Translations under genes and position numbers: made by a program | DNA from: an uncultured Candidatus Saccharibacteria bacterium | GTDB lineage: Bacteria; Patescibacteriota; Doudnabacteria; UBA920 | Assembly (NCBI GenBank): GCA_964597895.1 | Contig: CAZQZS010000001.1 | Span: 81,008 to 145,007 of the forward strand | DNA length: 64,000 bases | Direction of reading: 5' to 3' | Shown: positions 554-51,362 of the stretch, piece by piece | How the letters are laid out: every line of letters starts with the position of its first letter | How positions within the stretch are numbered: position 1 is the stretch's first letter | Notes under the pieces: model-generated | What the model was told of the DNA's origin: nothing | Seen by the model: only the letters and a program-made list of their open reading frames with translations | Database searches by the model: none

Positions 554-600
554 TATCACATTGACTTTAAGATTAAAACAAATTTTTGCTTGGGCCGACA

Positions 601-672
601 GGTGAAGGCGCGACGAGTGTAGCGAGGAGCGCCGTAGCGAACCCCAAGGTTAAGCGAAAATTTGAGAGGAGA
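601..672 (+). ncRNA. conserved structured motif copy A (candidate leader RNA element of rpmF)
   Basis: About 80% identical to 4743-4814; helix ggcGc...gCgcc vs ggcTc...gAgcc covaries; shared core gagtgtagcga...ggttaagc.aaatttg. Confidence 0.3.
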
Positions 673-738
673 AATTGACGAAGACAGCTAGCGGACAAGT
701 TTGCTTGCCTGCGAGAGGTCGGAGACAATTTTGACGAC

Positions 739-4706: not shown

Positions 4707-4742
4707 AATCTAATGGTGATCAAATTTCTGCTTGGGGCAAGT

Positions 4743-4814
4743 TGGAGCAGGCTCACGGAGTGTAGCGACGGGAGCCGTCGCGACAACGCAGGTTAAGCAG
4801 AAATTTGTAAGGCA
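4743..4814 (+). ncRNA. conserved structured motif copy B
   Basis: Paralogue of 601-672 with compensatory change in the closing helix. Confidence 0.3.
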
Positions 4815-4883
4815 CAATAATGCGGAAGGTGGAGTGGGTCCGCCAGGGGCGGGCACACGCAACCTGCAGCATTAATTGGGCCG

Positions 4884-4960
4884 TGGTCGGGAACCCGGGA
4901 CTCGAACCCGGAACCTCTCGGTCCCAAACCGAGTGCTCTAGCCAATTGAGCCAGTTCCCG
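4884..4960 (-). tRNA. tRNA-Pro (anticodon UGG)
   Basis: Manual cloverleaf: acceptor CGGGAAC/GTTCCCG, anticodon stem CTCGG/CCGAG, loop TTTGGGA, T-arm CCGGG-TTCGAGT-CCCGG, CCA encoded. Confidence 0.85.
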
Positions 4961-5203
4961 AAGCATGATTGCCTCAAATCTACATATGTTACCGAGCCAC
5001 AGCCATCTAAGGCTAGAGGCACTCGGTGAGTGCACTATCTCTTGGTCTGCCTTGGGCAGAACCCAATTGAGCCAGTTCCCGAAGCATGATTGCCTCAAAT
5101 CTACATATGTTACCGAGCCACAGCCATCTAAGGCTAGAGGCACTCGGTGAGTGCACTATCTCTTGGTCTGCCTTGGGCAGAACCCAATTGAGCCAGTTCC
5201 CGT
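4944..5203. repeat. 121-bp tandem repeat, about 2.1 copies, first copy overlapping the 5' 17 nt of tRNA-Pro
   Basis: aattgagccagttcccgaagc... recurs at 4944, 5065, 5186 with identical units. Confidence 0.8.
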
Positions 5204-5926: not shown

Positions 5927-6866
5927 CTTTATATTGGTAGATCTCTGCGCAGCTTGCACAAACAAAACTTTAGCTATTTTTAGGCTAGATTATGACTTTT
6001 AAGCCATTTTGCAAGACAATTTGCTCGGCCAGACCTTCAAGCTAACCGTGAATATACCCCCATAATTAGTTGACCTTTTTGGCCAGGTATTTTATAATAT
6101 ATGCACAAATGAAAAAGATTGGTTGCCAATTAAATAGCAATCTCCAAATGCGCAAATAAGCGTATTTTTGCCAAATCTCCGTATTTTGGCAAAAATCTCC
6201 ATATTTTGCGTGTTTTTTGTTACCAAAGTTGGCCCAAAGTAGTAAACATATATACATTAAAAAATCAGCCATTTTTTGTAACAGCTTACTAGTATAGACG
6301 TCTAATTTACCGTAATCTGACAATCCTAGAAACAAACACCTAAAAAATCGAGTTTAGAGTAATGCCTGACAGACAGGTATCACCCTGAACTTGAATTGTG
6401 TCATTCTTGGGCTCTACCCTGAGCTTGTCGAAGGGGAGAGAGCCGGGATCTATAATTTATGGATCCCCGGCCGCCGTCGGCGCCAGGGATGACAACTAAA
6501 GAATTCTCGGGCGTGAACCGGGATTCCACAAGTTCAGTTAGTTCTTTTTAGTTATTGACTCATTTTGTACCGTTTCTCAAAAGGTGACTTACGTATTAAT
6601 CACCGAGGCCGGTTGGTAGTCTGAGTTAGCGTTAGATTCCTTGGTCCTAGATCAGGGAGGCCTATGCAAACTCGCGGCGCTCTTGCAGCGTCCTGCCCAC
6701 CCGTTTTGGCAGTAAGTATCCTTGGTCGAACTTTTGGGAGCGAGCGCGTGCGAAATGAATTATCAATAATCGGTCTATGTTTGAAATAGGCGAGCGTGAA
6801 CTCTAGAGCTCGCTCGAAACTAACAGATATAGCTCGTTAAACCTAATTAATATTTTTTGAATCTTT

Positions 6867-9315: not shown

Positions 9316-10149
9316 TTATTCATACTCTTCGCTGTATTGATCAGCGAGGATAGATATTTTAGCGTCAAGAATTTTCTGTAAGGCCTCATCATAGTCTGCT
9401 CCATCCATTTCGTCTATAGCTTGTTCAAGTAATAGCTCTTCTTCCTGGGTTAACTCTGTATCTTTACTGAGTTCTACAACATCATTTATTTCGGATTCAA
9501 CTAACTGTTTTTGCTCAGTTTCGTTCGCACTTTCGATAAACATATCCAGCTCATTTTCTATCTCTATATCTATGGTTTGTTCGGCTAAGGCGATATCTTG
9601 GCTTTCTGTTCCTGCTTCGGAAAATAATTCATCCTGAGCATCTAATATGGCTGCCACTTCCACTAGCTGATCAATTTGTAAAGAAGGGGATTGTTCCGAT
9701 TCATTTAATACTACCTCCAGAGCATAATCTTCTATATTTTCGGAAATATAGCTCAGAGTTTCTGAATCCAGCTGCTCTGGTGAAGAGTTTTGCAATTCAT
9801 TTAGCCTTTCGTGAAGTCTTTCAGTAGCAAATTCGTTTTGCTCCTGCCACGGGGAGGTGAGCAGTTCTTCTGCAGGCTCAATTATCATAATTTCTACTCC
9901 ATAAAGCCAACCGCCGGGTCGGCTATTTTGAGCTGCATATGTGAGCGGGGTGGCAATTAATATTAGCAAGAGTGCTACGCTCACAGGCATAGCCACTTTG
10001 CTCTGCAGAAGCTGATGAATTAAGTGACTAATCCCGCTTGGCTGGGCTTTATCGCTCCCAATCACAGCAGTCAGCATTTGTTCCTTTTCCTTGGCCGACA
10101 GCCTAGTTTGATTGGCTTGTTCTGTAAATTTTTGTAATGGGTCAGTCAT
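9316..10149 (-). CDS. putative anti-sigma factor (single TM, acidic extracytoplasmic domain)
   Basis: Overlaps ECF sigma gene by 8 nt (translational coupling); short N-terminal cytoplasmic region, one TM helix, acidic C-terminal domain. Confidence 0.5.
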   Translation of the reverse strand: MTDPLQKFTEQANQTRLSAKEKEQMLTAVIGSDKAQPSGISHLIHQLLQSKVAMPVSVALLLILIATPLTYAAQNSRPGGWLYGVEIMIIEPAEELLTSPWQEQNEFATERLHERLNELQNSSPEQLDSETLSYISENIEDYALEVVLNESEQSPSLQIDQLVEVAAILDAQDELFSEAGTESQDIALAEQTIDIEIENELDMFIESANETEQKQLVESEINDVVELSKDTELTQEEELLLEQAIDEMDGADYDEALQKILDAKISILADQYSEEYE

Positions 10150-11095: not shown

Positions 11096-13342
11096 ATGAA
11101 AACTTTTTTAAGTAAAATAGTAACTGGTTTTTCTGTTGTTGCTTTATCTGCAACAATGTTGGTTATGCCGGCTGCTGTAACCAAGGCTGCTACTGCTGGT
11201 GGAGTTTACTCTACCCCAGACGGTACCGTATGGTTCGTCACTAAGGATATGCAGAAGCGTCCTTTCACTAGCGCAGGTGCTTTCTTGAGCTATGGTTTCT
11301 TAAACTTCTCTCAAGTTACCCCAGCTGACGCTAGCGTAACCGCTTTGCCTACTGGTAGCTTCATCGCTCCAGCTGACGGCAAAATCTTCTGTGCTACCGA
11401 AACCAAAGGTACTGACGTAGCCGGAGAATGTGCTCTAATCACTGGAAGCAAGAAAGCTTCCTTTACCTCTGCTGCTGTATTCGCAGCACAAGGCCACAGT
11501 TTTGCCCGCGCAATGTATGGTGACTCTTCCTTCTTGGAAAAGACCTCTAACATCAGCGACGGCAGTGCTGCTCACCTTCCAGGTGTGTTAGTAAACAACG
11601 GCGGCACCGTTCAAATGGTTGTCTCCGGTGGTCTATGGGGTATCCCATCTATTGATGTATTCAATTCTTGGGGCTACAACTTTGCTGACGTAGTACCTGC
11701 AAACTCTGCAGACTTAGTTAAAGAACAAATTGGTGTGATTCCTGCCCGCCAAGCTGGTGAATTAGTGCCGACTGGCCTTACTGGCGGTCCAACTCCTGGT
11801 CCAAAGGATTGTAATTTGGATGGCTCTGCCGGCTCAATTGACGTGGAATCTTCATCCATTTACAGCAATGAAGAAGTGGGCGAAGGGCAAGAAGAAGTTC
11901 CTGTAATGGCCTTCCGTGTAGAAGCTGATAACGATTCCGACATTGAAATCCGCTCTATCCGTGTTGCTTTGGAACACACTGGTTCTGGATCTCAGGACTT
12001 AGACGATTACGCAACCGAAATCACTGTTTGGCAAGGCGATGATATGGTAGGTTCTGCAGATGTTGATGAATTCACCGAGAATAATGACATCTTTACCAAG
12101 ACCATTAACTTGGATTGTGCAGTGATTGATGCAGACGAAACTGAGGAATTCTCGGTAGCTGTTTCTGCATTGCGCAACATTGACTCCAATGATTTGGATG
12201 AAGTTTGGAACATTGACGTGACCAGCATCCGCTTTATGGATGGTGACGGCGTGACCACTACTGAATCCCAGTCTGGCCTGGATCAAGACTTTACTTTTGT
12301 GGATTTTGTCACTGCTGCTGACGTTGAACTTCGCGTTGCTCTTAATGACGACGAGGAAGACATCAATGACGCGCATAACATCTTGGTAGATGAAGACACC
12401 ACCACCAAGAATGAGCCAGTATTGGCATTCACCTTGGAAGCTCGTGGTGATTCTGACATCACTGTGGATGAAATCCCAGTGTTGTTGACCACTGATGACG
12501 ATGATATGGATTCTGTAGCAACTACTGCTCATCTTTATCAGGGTACGACAAAGTTGAGTACAGAAACAATTACTAGCAGCAATACTGACCATGACAATGA
12601 TGCTCAAACTGCTCTGGTTATCTTCGATGATCTCGACTTTGACATCGACGCAGGCGATAAGGAAGAGTTCCAGGTTCGCTTGGATTTTGCCCGCCGCACT
12701 GTAAGCACTTATGCTGAAGGTACTACCGTCCGTGCAGAAATCACTAGCGCCTTGGCTGATTCTGACTTGGAAGCCGAAGACGAAGAAGGTAATGATTTGA
12801 GCTCTAGTGAAATCAGTGGTTCTGCTCTAGGTGAAGACCACTCCTTGTTTACCCAAGGTATTCAGGTAGAAGTAACTTCTAAGCAAACCAATGTTAACAC
12901 TAACGACGGAGCAGACAACGATTCTGTGGAGTTCGTTTGGGAAGTTACCATTACCAACATTGGTGATGAAGATGTATTCATCAATGCCGACAATGCCGAT
13001 GTAGTATCTAGTGATACTGCAGCAGATGTTGACACTTTGTACGCATCTGAGGACGGTGCAGCAACTCTTGGTAGTTTCAGTGGTACAATCACTGATGAAA
13101 ATGCAACCGAGTCTACCGCTAGTGCCGGCAACTTTAATGGTGAAGTGTTCTACAAGATCGCTGCTGGCGGTTCGGAAGACTTTACCATCACCGTGACTGC
13201 GACTAACAGCGCAGGTGCAGGTCAGGTTCGTGGTTGGTTGACTGCCATCGAATGGACAACCAACATTAATGGTGGGGTAGCTGAGTCTTATACCGCTAAT
13301 CTGGTTCAAGATTCACGCACACCATTCAAGCTGGTAAACTAA
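11096..13342 (+). CDS. secreted acidic surface protein, paralogue B
   Basis: 748 aa; DNA 11171-11650 is 100% identical to 7042-7521, then the sequences diverge. Confidence 0.7.
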   Translation: MKTFLSKIVTGFSVVALSATMLVMPAAVTKAATAGGVYSTPDGTVWFVTKDMQKRPFTSAGAFLSYGFLNFSQVTPADASVTALPTGSFIAPADGKIFCATETKGTDVAGECALITGSKKASFTSAAVFAAQGHSFARAMYGDSSFLEKTSNISDGSAAHLPGVLVNNGGTVQMVVSGGLWGIPSIDVFNSWGYNFADVVPANSADLVKEQIGVIPARQAGELVPTGLTGGPTPGPKDCNLDGSAGSIDVESSSIYSNEEVGEGQEEVPVMAFRVEADNDSDIEIRSIRVALEHTGSGSQDLDDYATEITVWQGDDMVGSADVDEFTENNDIFTKTINLDCAVIDADETEEFSVAVSALRNIDSNDLDEVWNIDVTSIRFMDGDGVTTTESQSGLDQDFTFVDFVTAADVELRVALNDDEEDINDAHNILVDEDTTTKNEPVLAFTLEARGDSDITVDEIPVLLTTDDDDMDSVATTAHLYQGTTKLSTETITSSNTDHDNDAQTALVIFDDLDFDIDAGDKEEFQVRLDFARRTVSTYAEGTTVRAEITSALADSDLEAEDEEGNDLSSSEISGSALGEDHSLFTQGIQVEVTSKQTNVNTNDGADNDSVEFVWEVTITNIGDEDVFINADNADVVSSDTAADVDTLYASEDGAATLGSFSGTITDENATESTASAGNFNGEVFYKIAAGGSEDFTITVTATNSAGAGQVRGWLTAIEWTTNINGGVAESYTANLVQDSRTPFKLVN

Positions 13343-48750: not shown

Positions 48751-49434
48751 TTATAGAATATCGCTTTTCTGGACTTCAATATACTCTCCGGGAGCGATAT
48801 TGGGCAGTTTGAGCTTATTGATGCGGACTCTTTTTAGATTATGCACGCCTAAGCCGACAGCATTAAACATGCGTCTTACTTGTCGTTTTTTGCCTTCGTG
48901 CACAGTAATGTAAATTTTGCCGCTGCGCTGTTTTATAGCAGCGGGGGAGGTGAGACCTGTTGGCAGTTCAATACCATCACGCAGCTTTTCTAGCTGAGCT
49001 GGCTTAGGTTCGCCATCTGTAATGACTTCATATTCTTTATCATGCTCGTATTTAGGGTGGGAGAGCTCTTGCGTTAAATCGCCGTCGTTCGTCAGTAATA
49101 ACAAGCCTTCAGTATCGTAGTCTAATCGGCCGACATTATGCACCTTAGTTCGTAAGTCTTCTGGCAGTAGGGAAAATACAGTCTTGCGTCCCCGTGGATC
49201 GCGTTTGCTAACCACAACGCCTTTAGGTTTATTGAGGGCGATATAAATTTTTCGTTCAGAATGCTTTACGATTTTACCGTAAACTTTTACCTCATCTTTT
49301 TCTGGATCAACTTTGTCGCCAAGCTTGGCTTTGCGTCCATTAATTGAAACTTGGCCAGACTTAATAAACTCCTCGGCTTTTCGCCGAGAAGCTATCCCCT
49401 GCTCACTTAAAAATTTTTGAACGCGTTCTTGCAT
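48751..49434 (-). CDS. pseudouridine synthase, RsuA/RluB family
   Basis: N-terminal S4 domain plus VGRLDYDTEGLLLLTNDG catalytic motif. Confidence 0.8.
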   Translation of the reverse strand: MQERVQKFLSEQGIASRRKAEEFIKSGQVSINGRKAKLGDKVDPEKDEVKVYGKIVKHSERKIYIALNKPKGVVVSKRDPRGRKTVFSLLPEDLRTKVHNVGRLDYDTEGLLLLTNDGDLTQELSHPKYEHDKEYEVITDGEPKPAQLEKLRDGIELPTGLTSPAAIKQRSGKIYITVHEGKKRQVRRMFNAVGLGVHNLKRVRINKLKLPNIAPGEYIEVQKSDIL

Positions 49435-49437
49435 AAA

Positions 49438-49761
49438 TTATGAGCCTGTGACCACAAAGATAATCATAAAGGCGATGATTACGAATAAGAGAATCCAGCC
49501 TAAGGTATAACCTAAAAAGAAAAATGCATCTCGCTTTAAATTATTTAAAAATAGATAGACAGGGCGACCGAACACGAGGATGGCCATAACCGCAACCGAG
49601 AGTACTAATAACAGCAGCATGGCAATCGGGGCCATAAAGGTATCAGGGGTGTTGGCGAAGTACTTTTCTAGATTGGTCATCAGGGTGACGACTAGGCTGA
49701 TGTAGACAACTACGCCGGCGGCGTGCCCAAAGCTATGTAAAAGCATTTTTGATTTGTTCAT
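49438..49761 (-). CDS. small hypothetical membrane protein
   Basis: 107 aa with three predicted TM helices. Confidence 0.35.
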   Translation of the reverse strand: MNKSKMLLHSFGHAAGVVVYISLVVTLMTNLEKYFANTPDTFMAPIAMLLLLVLSVAVMAILVFGRPVYLFLNNLKRDAFFFLGYTLGWILLFVIIAFMIIFVVTGS

Positions 49762-49987
49762 AAAACTCCTTTGTTACATAATTTTGTAACGATTGGGTAA
49801 TGGTAATTGTAACAATCATATGGTAGCTCCGGCTGGGATTGCACCAGCGACCGCGTCGTATCGGGCTTCGCCCGTGCGACGCCAACTTTCGTTGGGTCGC
49901 AACTCAGCTTCGCCGATACTCCTTTAACTTTCTTACTTAACCTCGCTTTACTCGGCCCAAGTAAGAAAGTTGTCCATGAACTCTTGC

Positions 49988-50064
49988 TGGTGGCCTCGAC
50001 TGGGATCGAACCAGTGACCTTGGGCTTAGAAGTCCCCTGCTCTATCCAACTGAGCTACGAGGCC
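49988..50064 (-). tRNA. tRNA-Arg (anticodon UCU), non-canonical anticodon stem
   Basis: Perfect acceptor and T-arm, D-arm identical to E. coli argU, loop CTTCTAA; anticodon stem has G27.A43 and A31.G39 mismatches. Confidence 0.6.
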
Positions 50065-50090
50065 ATCAGCAAGAGTTCATTAATTACTCG

Positions 50091-50125
50091 AAGCCCCTGC
50101 TCTATCCAACTGAGCTTCGGAGCCG
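50091..50125 (-). pseudogene. tRNA-Arg 5'-half fragment (acceptor, D-arm, start of anticodon stem)
   Basis: GGCTCCGAAGCTCAGTTGGATAGAGCAGGGGCTTC is about 90% identical to tRNA-Arg(UCU) nucleotides 1-35. Confidence 0.5.
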
Positions 50126-50167
50126 TGATGCTTATATTATAACAAAAACCGCTGTTTGCGGTTTTCG

Positions 50168-50244
50168 TGGTGCACCCGACAGGATTCGAACCTATGACCT
50201 CTCGCTCCGCAAGCGAACGCTCTATCCAGCTGAGCTACGGGTGC
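50168..50244 (-). tRNA. tRNA-Arg (anticodon GCG as read)
   Basis: Manual cloverleaf: acceptor GCACCCG/CGGGTGC, anticodon stem TTCGC/GCGAG, loop TTGCGGA, T-arm ATAGG-TTCGAAT-CCTGT, CCA encoded. Confidence 0.7.
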
Positions 50245-50405
50245 ACGTCGTAGTTTTCTTCGGGTTTACGAAATCGGCTAAAGCCAATTTCTACCGCCCT
50301 CCGTAAACTACTCCTGTCACATTCACGATTAACTTCGCTCTGCTCGGCCCAAGTGTGAATGTGGTCTAGAGTAACAACTAAAGAATTATAATGAAAAATA
50401 GAGAA

Positions 50406-51362
50406 TTAATCAAGCTCGGCTTGGACGACTTTTTCAGCTTCGGCAGCGGTTTTGCATTCGTATAATTTTGCGCGCAGTTCGGCAGCGCCGTCAAAGCCAT
50501 GTACGTACGCTTTAAAATGGCGCTTCATAACATCAAAGTGTTTGATGTTATTAAATAATTCGTGATAAAGCCTGACATGCTCAAGTAGAACTGTTAATTT
50601 TTCCTCACGGTTTGGTTGGTGTTCAGAAAATAGCCACGGATTTCCAAAAATTGCCCGACCCATCATCACTCCATCACAGCCTGTTTCTGCAACTTTCTGC
50701 TTGGCTTCTTCCACTGAACGGACATCTCCATTGCCGATAATGACCGGCCGGGTTTCTGGCGTTGTCTGTGCGTGGATAAATTTCACAATTTCTAGCATAA
50801 GCTCCCAGTGCGCTGGTACTTTGGACATTTCTTTGCGTGTGCGCAGGTGAATTGCAATTGCGGCTGGCTGTGCTTCTAATAATTTACCGATCCAGTTTTG
50901 CCAATCTACTTTAGTATCGCCAATTCTAATTTTGCAGGATACTGGTAAATCCCCAGCGCCTTCTTTAGCAGCTAGAATAATTTCTTTGGCGAGTTCGGGT
51001 GTGTGAAATAAACCGGCACACGAACCTGTTTTAATAATTGCTTTGTCGGGACAACCCATGTTGATATCAATACCGTCAAATCCAAGCTCACGAGCCAGCT
51101 TGGCTGTATCTTTAAACTTGTCTGGTTTGGTGCCAAAGATTTGCGCCACTACAGGATGCTCGCCGTCACTCAGCCAGAGGTGATGGATAAGCTTTTCCCG
51201 TCCGGCACTCATCAAGCCATCAGTTGACACAAACTCAGTATAAAAGACATCTGGCTTGCCATATTTGGCGATGATGCGGCGAAATGCTTCGTCGGTCACA
51301 TCATACAGCGGCGCCAGAGCCATAATCGGTTTAGGTAAAGTTTTCCAAAAATTCTTAGACAT
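50406..51362 (-). CDS. dus: tRNA-dihydrouridine synthase
   Basis: 318 aa TIM-barrel flavoenzyme with Dus-like N-terminus (LAPLYDVTDEAFRRI). Confidence 0.8.
   Translation of the reverse strand: MSKNFWKTLPKPIMALAPLYDVTDEAFRRIIAKYGKPDVFYTEFVSTDGLMSAGREKLIHHLWLSDGEHPVVAQIFGTKPDKFKDTAKLARELGFDGIDINMGCPDKAIIKTGSCAGLFHTPELAKEIILAAKEGAGDLPVSCKIRIGDTKVDWQNWIGKLLEAQPAAIAIHLRTRKEMSKVPAHWELMLEIVKFIHAQTTPETRPVIIGNGDVRSVEEAKQKVAETGCDGVMMGRAIFGNPWLFSEHQPNREEKLTVLLEHVRLYHELFNNIKHFDVMKRHFKAYVHGFDGAAELRAKLYECKTAAEAEKVVQAELD

What the first reader, a model, noticed from the sequence alone, without database searches (positions are those of the whole stretch)
49926..50363. Two hairpins flanking the tRNA-Arg pair share a conserved 24-nt loop but have completely different, fully complementary stems
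Hairpin 1 (49926-49971) is aactttcttac [ttaacctcgctttactcggcccaa] gtaagaaagtt, with an 11-bp perfect stem. Hairpin 2 (50318-50363) is cacattcac [gattaacttcgctctgctcggcccaagt] gtgaatgtg, with a 9-bp perfect stem. Loop cores are 21/24 identical (TAACYTCGCTYTRCTCGGCCCAAG). The stems share no sequence, yet each is perfectly self-complementary. Total stem covariation with a conserved loop is classic evidence for a functional RNA or DNA hairpin whose loop is the recognised part. Both sit just outside the two-tRNA transcription unit.
Basis: seen in the sequence. Interest (0 to 1): 0.6.

Follow-up and report, generated by a model that had tools for sequence, protein, structure and literature searches.

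The report
New structured leader RNA before tRNAs
The two hairpins are real and are the first helix of a previously uncatalogued, roughly 120-base folded RNA that sits directly in front of tRNA genes and a few protein genes in Patescibacteria (candidate phyla radiation bacteria), ending two to four bases before the downstream product starts.

Summary

**What the hairpins are.** Each is helix P1 of a ~120-nt, four-helix RNA read on the minus strand, the same strand as the tRNAs.
- Copy W2 lies at 50245-50364, and copy W1 at 49853-49972.
- A covariance model finds two more copies in the window: 578-738 (+), abutting the rpmF start codon, and a degenerate one at 4720-4884 (+).

**Wider distribution.** About a dozen further copies occur in Saccharibacteria-, Doudnabacteria- and Parcubacteria-labelled genome bins.

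**Structural support.**
- Structure-based alignment shows 93.5% of cells paired, against 29-39% in slid controls.
- 24 of 36 pairs show changes on both sides.

**What the "conserved loop" is.** Most of it is a sequence-invariant helix, 5'-CUUG-N-GCC / GGUUAAG-3', with two G·U pairs. That makes it strand-specific, so it acts as RNA.

**Position.** The motif ends in an invariant GAC. Two nucleotides later (occasionally 3-4) comes tRNA +1 or an AUG.

**Known families.** No Rfam 15 family matches, and six literature searches found no description.

**Distribution among relatives.** It is patchy: some orthologous sites are filled and others empty. W1 belongs to a ~235-nt insertion that split the resident tRNA-Arg(UCU) gene and carries a replacement tRNA.

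**Function.** It is unproven. My best guess is a cis-acting leader module that defines or controls the downstream 5' end.

The parts
50245..50364 (-). Motif copy W2, the full ~120-nt structured leader. In window coordinates: P1 50318-50363, J1/2 ACAGGA 50312-50317, P2 50305-50311 paired with 50250-50256, P4 hairpin 50272-50289, GAC 50247-50249, spacer GU 50245-50246.
Evidence: cmsearch scores 114.6 bits, E 1.9e-24.
49853..49972 (-). Motif copy W1. P1 49926-49971, J1/2 AAAGGA 49920-49925, P2 49913-49919 paired with 49858-49864, GAC 49855-49857, spacer GC 49853-49854.
Evidence: cmsearch scores 104.2 bits, E 4.8e-22.
50168..50244 (-). tRNA-Arg(GCG). Its +1 nucleotide lies 2 nt after the GAC of W2.
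   Evidence: ARAGORN, Rfam tRNA 66.5 bits, junction table.
50385..50413 (-). Promoter-like site (TTGATT, 17 nt, TATAAT) upstream of W2.
   Evidence: 10 of 12 matches. The same TATAAT context is kept in the orthologous loci L029, L031 and L033.
50143..50167 (-). Terminator-like hairpin plus U run (CGAAAACCGCAAACAGCGGUUUUUG) after tRNA-Arg(GCG). A TATAAT box follows it and precedes the next unit.
   Evidence: Read from the sequence. The consensus scan did not list it. The equivalent in L033 has a different sequence but the same form.
50085..50124 (-). X5': the 5' part of the disrupted resident tRNA-Arg(UCU) gene, comprising acceptor strand GGCUCCG, D arm and anticodon-arm 5' side.
   Evidence: It is a 90% direct repeat of the 5' half of the intact tRNA. 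Acceptor type and 5' flank match the intact tRNA-Arg(UCU) of relative L030 at 12251-12327.
49976..50080 (-). Replacement tRNA-Arg(UCU) (49988-50064) carried on a 14-bp flanking inverted repeat: AUGAACUCUUGCUG at 50067-50080 and CAGCAAGAGUUCAU at 49976-49989.
   Evidence: ARAGORN and Rfam. Inverted repeat of 23 nt, 96% complementary including the acceptor stem. The long stem appears in the minimum-free-energy fold. The segment is identical in L033.
49821..49852 (-). X3': the 3' part of the disrupted resident tRNA-Arg(UCU), from variable loop G45 through the T arm and acceptor strand CGGAGCU to ACCA. It starts 2 nt after the GAC of W1.
   Evidence: Sequence. It is complementary to the X5' acceptor strand. 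The T stem GCUGG/CCAGC and the acceptor strand are of the L030 type. Variants occur in L011 and L033.
578..738 (+). Motif copy W3, with a 48-nt expansion of the P1 tip. It ends GAC-GAC and is followed at 739 by the AUG of rpmF (ribosomal protein L32, 739-903). A promoter-like site lies at 525-553.
   Evidence: cmsearch scores 73.8 bits with R1 and 83.3 bits with R2. Promoter matches 11 of 12. Translation and L32 homologs with PF01783.
4720..4884 (+). Motif copy W4, which is degenerate. P1, P2 and P4 are present, the P1 tip is expanded by 49 nt, J1/2 reads UAAGGC and there is no GAC. It lies between tRNA-Gly and tRNA-Pro on the opposite strand, with no sense gene downstream.
   Evidence: cmsearch scores 42.3 bits with R1 and 61.2 bits with R2. 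P1 base stem is 13 bp, 100% complementary.

Best explanation
The two hairpins are the P1 helices of two copies of a ~120-nt structured RNA.

**Shown**
- The RNA is made on the minus strand as part of the same transcripts as the tRNAs.
- Its layout is: P1, J1/2, a P2-P3-P4 arm, then a 3' GAC.
- P1 has a free-varying ~10-bp base and an invariant core, 5'-CUUG-N-GCC / GGUUAAG-3', with two G·U pairs. Its tip is usually capped by tandem GA/GA.
- J1/2 reads ARAGGAR. The P2-P3-P4 arm has purine-rich internal loops.
- The 3' GAC can clamp onto the GGA of J1/2 as G-C plus tandem G·A.
- The motif is a modular 5' leader or spacer. It starts at or a few nucleotides after a promoter's start site, or just after an upstream tRNA.
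- Its clamp ends 2 nt (rarely 3-4) before tRNA +1 or a start codon.

**Inferred, not shown**
- The folded module acts in cis to define or gate the 5' end of what follows.
- An endonucleolytic cut just past the clamp separates it from the downstream RNA. RNase P at tRNA +1 is certain to be available. An intrinsic or recruited activity is needed in the mRNA cases.
- The invariant P1 core and the GA-rich loops would be the surface recognised by the responsible factor, or would form the active fold.
For: **Structure**
- RNAalifold on 11 copies gives 36 pairs, 24 of them with compensatory changes.
- On 13 copies, 93.5% of cells are paired against 28.5-39.1% when partners are slid. The covariation score is 0.645 against 0.184 in shuffles, with 0 of 500 shuffles reaching it.
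- P3 covaries by eye: AGCU/AGCU, AGGU/ACCU, GGGC/GCCC and GAGC/GCUC.

**RNA level and strand**
- Two G·U pairs are invariant in 13 of 13 copies.
- Orientation always matches the downstream gene.

**Leader position**
- Promoter-like sites lie directly upstream of W2 and W3. TATAAT-like boxes sit just before P1 in L002, L003, L006, L010 and L029.

**Fixed 3' junction**
- GAC plus 2 nt, then tRNA +1, for Arg-GCG (window, L011, L029, L031, L033), Ala, Cys, initiator-type Met and Ser.
- 4 nt for Ile.
- GAC-GA-AUG for the L002 sugar transferase.
- GAC-GAC-AUG for rpmF in the window.

**Long-term retention**
- The Dus to tRNA-Arg(GCG) leader is kept across lineages whose Dus proteins are 75-91% identical. 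It changes as a constrained RNA would: G-C to G·U, with a remodelled or expanded P1 tip.
Against: - No experiment supports it, and transcript ends are unknown.
- RNase P alone explains tRNA 5' maturation, so the module is not obviously needed there.
- It is dispensable at orthologous sites. It is absent before rpmF in six related loci, before the 85%-identical sugar transferase in L035-L040 and before tRNA-Arg(GCG) in L030.
- One copy (L003) is followed by a terminator and no product.
- W4 has nothing downstream.
- P1-like hairpins occur alone in L017 and L005.
- No known catalytic core or ligand pocket is recognisable.
- The short distance to the downstream start could partly reflect deletion pressure in streamlined genomes.
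Confidence: 0.35

Rival explanations
1. It is a cis-regulatory leader: a riboswitch-like or protein-binding element. The folded motif would bind a metabolite or a regulatory protein through the invariant P1 core and GA loops. Closing the GGA/GAC clamp 2-3 nt from the AUG or tRNA +1 would then hide the start from ribosomes or RNase P. This would co-regulate translation-apparatus genes (tRNAs and L32).
For: - The pattern is the classic one for such leaders: an invariant core with covarying peripheral helices, in 5' leaders right after promoters.
- Several differently stemmed copies occur per genome. The window has 4, and one Parcubacteria bin has copies on 3 contigs.
- J1/2 is Shine-Dalgarno-like (GAGAGGAG in both mRNA copies). 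It would lie about 5-6 nt from the AUG across a closed P2.
- RelA/SpoT genes exist in related genomes.
Against: - No separate expression platform or terminator lies between the motif and the product.
- Most downstream products are tRNAs, for which no riboswitch precedent exists.
- A sugar transferase is also preceded by the motif.
- Presence is patchy among close relatives.
- The most conserved part looks like a regular helix rather than a junction pocket.
Confidence: 0.25
2. It is a stable small RNA or ribonucleoprotein in its own right. It would merely borrow tRNA transcription units so that RNase P makes its 3' end, as in dicistronic tRNA-snoRNA or MALAT1-mascRNA arrangements. The GA-rich, K-turn or K-loop-like modules would be protein-binding sites.
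For: - L003 is a stand-alone gene with its own TATAAT-like box and an intrinsic terminator 14 nt after the motif.
- Tandem GA/GA at the P1 tip, the GGA/GAC clamp and GAA/GGAG loops around P3 resemble K-turn, K-loop or loop-E modules.
- Copies also sit after tRNAs, in W1 and L014.
Against: - The helices differ between copies of one genome. That fits a cis module better than a single trans-acting RNA.
- The same fixed spacing is kept before AUG codons, where RNase P cannot make the 3' end.
- The GA-capped tip is lost in the L033 ortholog and replaced in others.
Confidence: 0.15
3. It is a selfish mobile element or the scar of one. The motif would be the end structure of a small integrative or transposable DNA element that targets tRNA genes, or a self-cleaving and self-ligating RNA that spreads by attaching to RNA 5' ends.
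For: **Filled versus empty orthologous sites**
- rpmF.
- Sugar transferase.
- tRNA-Arg(GCG) in L030.

**W1 as part of an insertion**
- W1 is part of a ~235-nt insertion that split the resident tRNA-Arg(UCU) at about position 44/45 and brings a replacement tRNA. L030 keeps the intact gene.
- The insert is about 98% identical between the window and L033, while neighbouring genes are 66-78% identical.

**Duplicated tRNA 3' fragments after motif copies**
- The 32-nt fragment in L011.
- The 18-nt fragment in L006.

**Shared stem**
- The same P1 base stem (CCACAUUCAC) occurs in bins labelled Doudnabacteria and Saccharibacteria.
Against: - No transposase, reverse transcriptase, TnpB or integrase is adjacent. 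The neighbours are housekeeping genes.
- Copies within a genome are not near-identical but differ by compensatory changes.
- G·U pairs argue against a DNA hairpin.
- The tRNA-Arg(GCG) leader is vertically inherited across diverged lineages.
- No target-site duplications or terminal inverted repeats flank the motif itself.
Confidence: 0.12
4. It is a trivial feature: a local duplication with mutated arms, an intrinsic terminator, or a REP- or attC-like palindrome.
For: The two copies lie only ~390 nt apart and flank tRNA genes, where terminators and repeats are common.
Against: - More than 15 further copies occur in other genomes, with independent stems.
- No U tract follows the hairpins, and the terminator scan lists nothing there.
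- The conserved part is central and the variable part is the stem, the opposite of REP, MITE or attC elements.
- The conserved structure extends 70 nt beyond the hairpin.
Confidence: 0.01

Closest known systems
Orphan structured 5'-leader RNAs (riboswitch candidates, ribosomal-protein leaders)
   Same: It has an invariant core with covarying peripheral helices, a position right after promoters, several differently stemmed copies per genome, and one copy before a ribosomal protein gene (rpmF).
   Different: Most copies precede tRNAs rather than mRNAs. There is no expression platform. The motif abuts the product within 2-4 nt. No Rfam family matches.
Group I introns in Patescibacteria tRNA genes (PMC13011429)
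   Same: It occurs in the same phylum and is a structured RNA associated with tRNA genes. One copy (W1) lies between the two parts of a split tRNA gene. Its distribution is patchy.
   Different: - There is no RF00028 hit even at E up to 10.
- Most copies lie 5' of intact tRNAs or of ORFs, with no 5' exon.
- The split tRNA cannot be rejoined into a normal tRNA: the anticodon arm is damaged and U8 and the T loop are mutated.
- At ~120 nt it is shorter than group I introns.
E. coli tyrT operon repeats / rtT RNA (Rfam RF00391; recalled from memory)
   Same: It is an RNA embedded in a tRNA operon, associated with duplicated 3'-terminal tRNA fragments, and presumably released by tRNA processing.
   Different: Rfam finds no sequence or structure similarity. 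rtT lies 3' of the tRNA and is enterobacterial. The present motif has strong covariation and also precedes ORFs.
Kink-turn / K-loop containing RNAs (L7Ae-type binding sites; T-box stem I base)
   Same: Tandem GA/GA sits next to helices at the P1 tip. A GGA/GAC clamp sits at the P2 base, preceded by a 3-nt linker. The internal loops are purine-rich.
   Different: The geometry is not demonstrated. The P1-tip GA module is dispensable (L033, L005). No L7Ae-family partner was identified. T-box elements such as the specifier loop and antiterminator are absent.
Processing 'punctuation' elements and ribozyme insulators (mitochondrial tRNA punctuation; 5' HDV-like ribozymes of R2; lariat-capping ribozyme; synthetic RiboJ)
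   Same: It is a folded RNA placed directly against the functional start of a downstream RNA. That fits a role in generating a defined 5' end.
   Different: Cleavage has not been shown. There is no similarity to hammerhead, twister, pistol, hatchet or HDV models. The presumed cut would be at the 3' edge of the fold.
TnpB omega-RNA / right-end RNA
   Same: It is a ~120-nt scaffold whose 3' end abuts variable flanking sequence.
   Different: There is no tnpB or transposon end nearby. The distance to gene starts is fixed. At least one locus is vertically inherited.

Membership tests
Any Rfam 15 family | Covariance-model score at or above the family's gathering threshold | tested here: not met
   Whole window at gathering threshold: only 7 tRNAs. 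Region 49300-50900 at E up to 10: nothing on the hairpins. Other copies in L003, L014 and L016 at E up to 5, and ten loci at gathering threshold: only tRNAs.
Group I intron | Match to the conserved core (RF00028: P3-P8, P7 G-binding site) | tested here: not met
   No RF00028 hit at E up to 10 over 49300-50900.
Group I intron | Flanked by two exon halves that rejoin into an intact tRNA | tested here: not met
   W2, W3 and the copies in L002, L006, L010 and L014 have no upstream exon. W1 lies between X5' and X3', but these cannot be rejoined into a normal tRNA: the anticodon arm is damaged (several single-base deletions relative to L030, read by eye) and U8 and the T loop are mutated.
Intrinsic terminator | GC-rich hairpin followed by a U tract | tested here: not met
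   The scan lists no terminator at either hairpin. The hairpins are followed by ARAGGAG, not U runs.
REP / MITE / integron attC palindromes | Conserved arm sequences with a variable centre, and near-identical copies within a genome | tested here: not met
   Here the arms vary and the centre is conserved. Copies within the window differ throughout the helices.
Kink-turn / K-loop | Tandem sheared G·A pairs flanked by a helix, with a 3-nt bulge or loop | tested here: inconclusive
   The sequence is compatible. GA/GA flanks the P1 tip in 11 of 13 copies. GGA and GAC at the P2 base are invariant in all 11 rows of A2, and the G-C pair of the clamp is kept in 13 of 13. The geometry is not testable here, and the tip module is absent in L033 and L005 copies.
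Kink-turn / K-loop | Binding by an L7Ae-family protein | not testable with these tools
   No partner was searched genome-wide. Only 10 neighbouring ORFs were scanned and none is L7Ae-like.
Known self-cleaving ribozyme classes (hammerhead, twister, twister-sister, pistol, hatchet, HDV, hairpin, glmS) | Match to the class consensus | tested here: not met
   No such Rfam hits at permissive E-values.
Self-cleaving ribozyme (any, including new) | Site-specific self-scission in vitro | not testable with these tools
   This needs transcription and cleavage assays.
Riboswitch | Conserved aptamer with covarying helices in 5' leaders | tested here: met
Riboswitch | Expression platform (terminator/antiterminator or sequestered ribosome binding site) and a ligand | tested here: inconclusive
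   There is no terminator between motif and product. The clamp lies 2-3 nt from the AUG and could act as a platform. The ligand cannot be tested.
TnpB omega-RNA / IS200-IS605 end | Located at the 3' end of tnpB or at a transposon right end | tested here: not met
   Upstream of W2 is Dus, and upstream of W3 is a PBP fragment with a terminator-like hairpin (read by eye; the scan listed no terminator). No transposase-like ORFs are present.
T-box leader | Stem I specifier loop, T-box sequence and antiterminator; precedes aminoacyl-tRNA synthetase or amino-acid genes | tested here: not met
   No RF00230 hit. The downstream products are tRNAs, rpmF and a sugar transferase.

The most novel reading that the evidence does not exclude
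The motif is a new class of catalytic or ligand-gated RNA that sets the 5' end of stable RNAs and some mRNAs in Patescibacteria. It would make or control a cut exactly two nucleotides past its GGA/GAC clamp. That would yield mature tRNA 5' ends and leaderless (or nearly leaderless) mRNAs independently of, or in cooperation with, the diverged RNase P of these organisms. Reversible cleavage and ligation could then explain how it comes to sit against new RNA 5' ends, including tRNA fragments, and why it spreads patchily.
Probability: 0.15. Interest if true: 0.9.

Novelty: new variant of a known kind. Interest (0 to 1): 0.7.

Why it matters
Patescibacteria make up a large share of bacterial diversity, have tiny genomes and are barely studied at the RNA level. 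This is a ~120-nt RNA kept in several copies per genome, with strong covariation and a nearly invariant 15-nt core. It is placed with near single-nucleotide regularity against tRNA +1 and start codons. Such an element is unlikely to be neutral in genomes under heavy deletion pressure.

Depending on the mechanism, it could reveal one of three things:
- a new processing ribozyme or RNase recognition signal;
- a global regulator of the translation apparatus;
- a new kind of small mobile RNA module.

The associated finding matters for tRNA gene annotation and for how essential genes survive invasion. A resident tRNA-Arg(UCU) gene has been split by an insertion that carries its own replacement tRNA.

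The covariance model built here can be run over all Patescibacteria genomes immediately.

Tried and rejected
- **Rfam.** Four searches matched only tRNAs on or near the motif. The weak YrlA, SpF41 and Plastid-ycf2 hits are tRNA-derived noise.
- **Viral contigs.** The core pattern has no match.
- **Metagenome scan.** It returned only four loci. One is a full copy (L016), one is P1 only (L017), and two (L018, L019) lack the flanking arms.
- **Chance hits.** Seven of the 15 genome-contig hits (L001, L004, L007-L009, L012, L015) lie inside unrelated sequence without arms.
- **Group I intron reading of the split tRNA.** Rejected: there is no core match, no usable 3' exon, and other copies lack exons.
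- **Hammerhead-like CUGANGA/GAAA reading.** Rejected, because the elements are neither conserved nor correctly ordered.
- **Box C/D or H/ACA guide reading.** Rejected: no boxes are present, and the would-be guide region is the conserved part.
- **RNase P-like CR-I resemblance (GAGGAAG).** Judged coincidental.
- **11-nt tetraloop receptor reading of the P1 core.** The sequence is not the same, and P4 loops are not consistently GNRA.
- **Pairing between P1 tip and P4 loop.** No covariation seen by eye.
- **Conservation of motif-gene associations.**
  - The rpmF leader copy is absent from L020-L026.
  - The sugar-transferase leader copy is absent from L035-L040.
- **Broader model R2.** It found no further copies in about 280 kb of held loci apart from L029.
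- **Literature.** Six full-text searches found no description of this motif. They turned up group I introns in Patescibacteria tRNAs (PMC13011429) and diverged RNase P RNAs in the candidate phyla radiation (PMC8172020).
Full report
**1. Observation**

Both hairpins are at the stated coordinates with perfect stems of 11 bp (13 bp by the repeat finder) and 9 bp. Their 24-nt cores differ at 3 positions. The consensus, even with 3 mismatches allowed, occurs only at these two places in the 64-kb window, against 0.00 expected by chance. The closest public sequence is a contig labelled uncultured Candidatus Saccharibacteria (L011, CAZQMO010000005.1). It is 97% identical over 650 nt and has the same layout.

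**2. Anatomy**

The tRNAs here are on the minus strand. Read on that strand, each hairpin is followed by:
- A(R)AGGAG;
- about 70 nt of further helices;
- an invariant GAC.

RNAalifold on 11 copies gives four elements:
- P1, which has a variable base of about 10 bp. Above it comes C-G, U-A, U-A, G·U, a one-base bulge, G·U, C-G, C-G, and then usually GA/GA closing a short tip.
- A G-C plus GA/AG clamp between J1/2 (GGA) and the 3' GAC.
- P2, of 7 bp.
- The P4 hairpin.

A 4-bp P3 between P2 and P4 covaries by eye: AGCU/AGCU, AGGU/ACCU, GGGC/GCCC and GAGC/GCUC.

**3. Instances elsewhere and statistics**

One scan of 185,579 species genomes with TGGGCCGAGNNNAGCGANGTTA gave 15 loci. Eight are true copies with new, self-complementary arms and the same downstream elements. 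They come from bins labelled Saccharibacteria, Doudnabacteria, Parcubacteria (three contigs of one bin) and two probably misbinned 'Gammaproteobacteria'. The other seven hits are armless chance matches. The metagenome scan added one full copy and one P1-only copy.

A covariance model (R1) then recovered all copies at 77-122 bits and found new ones:
- window 578-737 (+), 74 bits;
- window 4720-4884 (+), 42 bits;
- L006 5572-5703, 99 bits;
- weaker or partial copies in L005, L006 and L017.

On the 13 best copies:
- 93.5% of pair cells are standard pairs, against 28.5-39.1% when partners are slid by 1-3 columns;
- 24 of 36 pairs change on both sides;
- the covariation score is 0.645, against 0.184 in shuffles, with 0 of 500 shuffles reaching it.

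That alignment was fitted to the model, which inflates pairing somewhat. The independent MAFFT alignment gave the same 24 of 36. The two G·U pairs are present in 13 of 13 copies. They would be A·C mismatches on the other strand, so the element works as RNA from the strand of the downstream gene.

**4. What is invariant and what is not**

Variants show that the P1 tip is plastic:
- it is expanded by 48-49 nt in the two other window copies and by 17 nt in L006b;
- it is greatly expanded in L029;
- it is reduced to nothing in an L005 copy;
- it is replaced by a plain hairpin in the L033 ortholog of W2.

What stays fixed is 5'-CUUG-N-GCC / GGUUAAG-3', the GGA of J1/2, the existence of P2 and P4, and the GAC.

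**5. Context**

Promoter-like sites lie just upstream:
- W2: TTGATT, 17 nt, TATAAT at 50413-50385.
- W3: TTGACT, 17 nt, TATAAT at 525-553.
- TATAAT-like boxes sit immediately before P1 in L002, L003, L006, L010 and L029.

Other copies follow a tRNA within an operon: W1, and L014 between two tRNA-Met genes.

The 3' junction is strikingly regular:

| Junction | Loci |
|---|---|
| GAC + 2 nt + tRNA +1 | tRNA-Arg(GCG) in five lineages, tRNA-Ala, tRNA-Cys, initiator-type tRNA-Met, tRNA-Ser |
| GAC + 4 nt + tRNA +1 | tRNA-Ile |
| GAC-GA-AUG | 470-aa sugar transferase in L002; the start is supported by equal-length homologs |
| GAC-GAC-AUG | rpmF in the window |
| GAC + 14 nt + intrinsic terminator | L003 |

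W4 has lost the GAC and has nothing downstream in sense orientation.

**6. Evolution**

At the Dus to tRNA-Arg(GCG) locus the motif is present in the window, L011, L029, L031/L032 and L033, where Dus is 75-91% identical. It evolves like a constrained RNA.

It is nevertheless dispensable at other sites:
- L030 (Dus 82% identical) has no copy before tRNA-Arg(GCG).
- Six related rpmF loci have none.
- Loci with an 85%-identical sugar transferase have an ordinary short leader instead.

In these filled-versus-empty comparisons, the right edge of the extra DNA falls within 1-3 nt of the AUG.

**7. The split tRNA around hairpin 1**

- Upstream of the annotated tRNA-Arg(UCU) lies a 40-nt 5' tRNA fragment (X5', 50085-50124).
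- Two nucleotides after the GAC of W1 lies a 32-nt 3' tRNA fragment ending in ACCA (X3', 49821-49852).
- Their acceptor strands are complementary: GGCUCCG and CGGAGCU.
- Relative L030 has, at the same place and with the same 5' flank, one intact tRNA-Arg(UCU) of exactly this acceptor and T-stem type.

So the resident gene was split at about position 44/45 by a ~235-nt insertion. The insertion consists of a replacement tRNA-Arg(UCU), with compensated differences in acceptor and T stems, held on a 14-bp inverted repeat, followed by W1.

L033 has the same composite. Between the window and L033 the insert differs at about 4 of 243 positions. The neighbouring genes are 66-78% identical and the unstructured spacers cannot be aligned. 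The X fragments differ more (5 of 60 and 4 of 32) and show patches of conversion toward the replacement tRNA.

A similar arrangement occurs in L006: tRNA, then motif, then a duplicated tRNA 3' fragment of 18 nt from tRNA-Ala. These facts point to recombination or mobility around the motif. No transposase, integrase, reverse transcriptase or TnpB is adjacent, and the neighbours are housekeeping genes.

**8. What it is not**

It is none of the following:
- a member of any Rfam 15 family;
- a group I intron;
- a terminator;
- a REP, MITE or attC palindrome;
- a known ribozyme class;
- a T-box;
- an omega-RNA at a transposon end.

The membership table gives the tests. Six literature searches found no description. 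The nearest papers concern group I introns in Patescibacteria tRNAs (PMC13011429) and diverged RNase P RNAs in the candidate phyla radiation (PMC8172020).

**9. Mechanism**

*Shown.* It is a conserved, strand-specific, multi-helix RNA used as a modular 5' leader or spacer, ending a fixed 2 (to 4) nt before the functional start of the downstream RNA.

*Inferred.* One rule covers both tRNAs and mRNAs: the product starts two nucleotides past the clamp. I therefore favour a role in defining or gating the downstream 5' end. This could be processing just past the clamp, by RNase P at tRNAs and by an intrinsic or recruited activity at mRNAs, or control of access to that site. The invariant P1 core and GA-rich loops would be the recognised or active surface (confidence 0.35).

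*Rivals.*
- A riboswitch-like or protein-binding regulator of translation-apparatus genes (0.25). The Shine-Dalgarno-like J1/2 would sit about 5-6 nt from the AUG across a closed P2.
- An autonomous small RNA or ribonucleoprotein that uses tRNA processing to make its 3' end (0.15).
- A selfish mobile module (0.12).

None can be settled without transcript-end mapping and biochemistry.

**10. Verdict**

It is a new family within a known general kind, the structured leader RNA, with an unusual clientele and geometry. Interest is 0.7.

Limits:
- There are about 20 copies from a handful of lineages.
- The taxonomic labels of the metagenome bins are unreliable.
- Some loci, such as the L011 X3' and the end of L031, may contain assembly chimeras.
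- E-values from the shortened calibration are rough.

Noticed in passing
window 49821-50124 (minus strand): The resident tRNA-Arg(UCU) gene is split at about position 44/45 by a ~235-nt insertion. The insertion carries a replacement tRNA-Arg(UCU) on a 14-bp inverted repeat, plus motif copy W1. An intact version of the split gene exists in relative L030 (12251-12327), and the same composite exists in L033 (6253-6556).
   Followed up: yes
window 4942-5202: A 121-nt tandem repeat of 2.2 copies, 100% identical. Each unit begins with the first ~19 nt of tRNA-Pro (the minus-strand 5' end) plus its upstream leader. It could be a real duplication or an assembly artefact.
   Followed up: partly
window 4720-4884 (+): A degenerate motif copy lies between tRNA-Gly and tRNA-Pro on the opposite strand, with nothing downstream. 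In relative L020 a plus-strand TPR gene occupies this interval, so this may be an orphaned leader.
   Followed up: partly
window 49765-49815: Three GTTACAA/GTAACAA repeats, partly palindromic, lie between the tRNA fragment X3' and the 107-aa membrane-protein gene. They may be an operator or promoter element.
   Followed up: no
L030 11498-11681: A ~165-nt structured insertion follows tRNA-Arg(GCG). After it come a 20-nt direct repeat of the tRNA 3' end and a terminator. It is not a member of the motif family, as neither model R1 nor R2 hits it.
   Followed up: no
L031 about 6253-6340: The tRNA-Arg(UCU) body is uninterrupted, but its acceptor 3' strand is replaced by CGCCGGUACCA, so ARAGORN does not call it. 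The contig ends soon after. This may be an integration junction or an assembly problem.
   Followed up: no
L035 about 9470-9890 (minus strand); L002 1-40: A GC-rich structured region containing GGGAGGAAAGTCCGAAC looks like RNase P RNA. It is divergent from the sugar-transferase operon whose L002 ortholog carries the motif.
   Followed up: no
L034 2693-4999: The XerC/D-type recombinase next to Dus is 768 aa long, with intein and LAGLIDADG Pfam hits. In the window and other relatives the protein is 321 aa.
   Followed up: no
L006 4764-4782; L005 2905-2995; L017 2142-2202: A truncated P1 5' half lies just upstream of another copy's promoter in L006. P1-like hairpins occur alone or in tandem without P2-P4 in L005 and L017. 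P1 may therefore be a separable module.
   Followed up: partly
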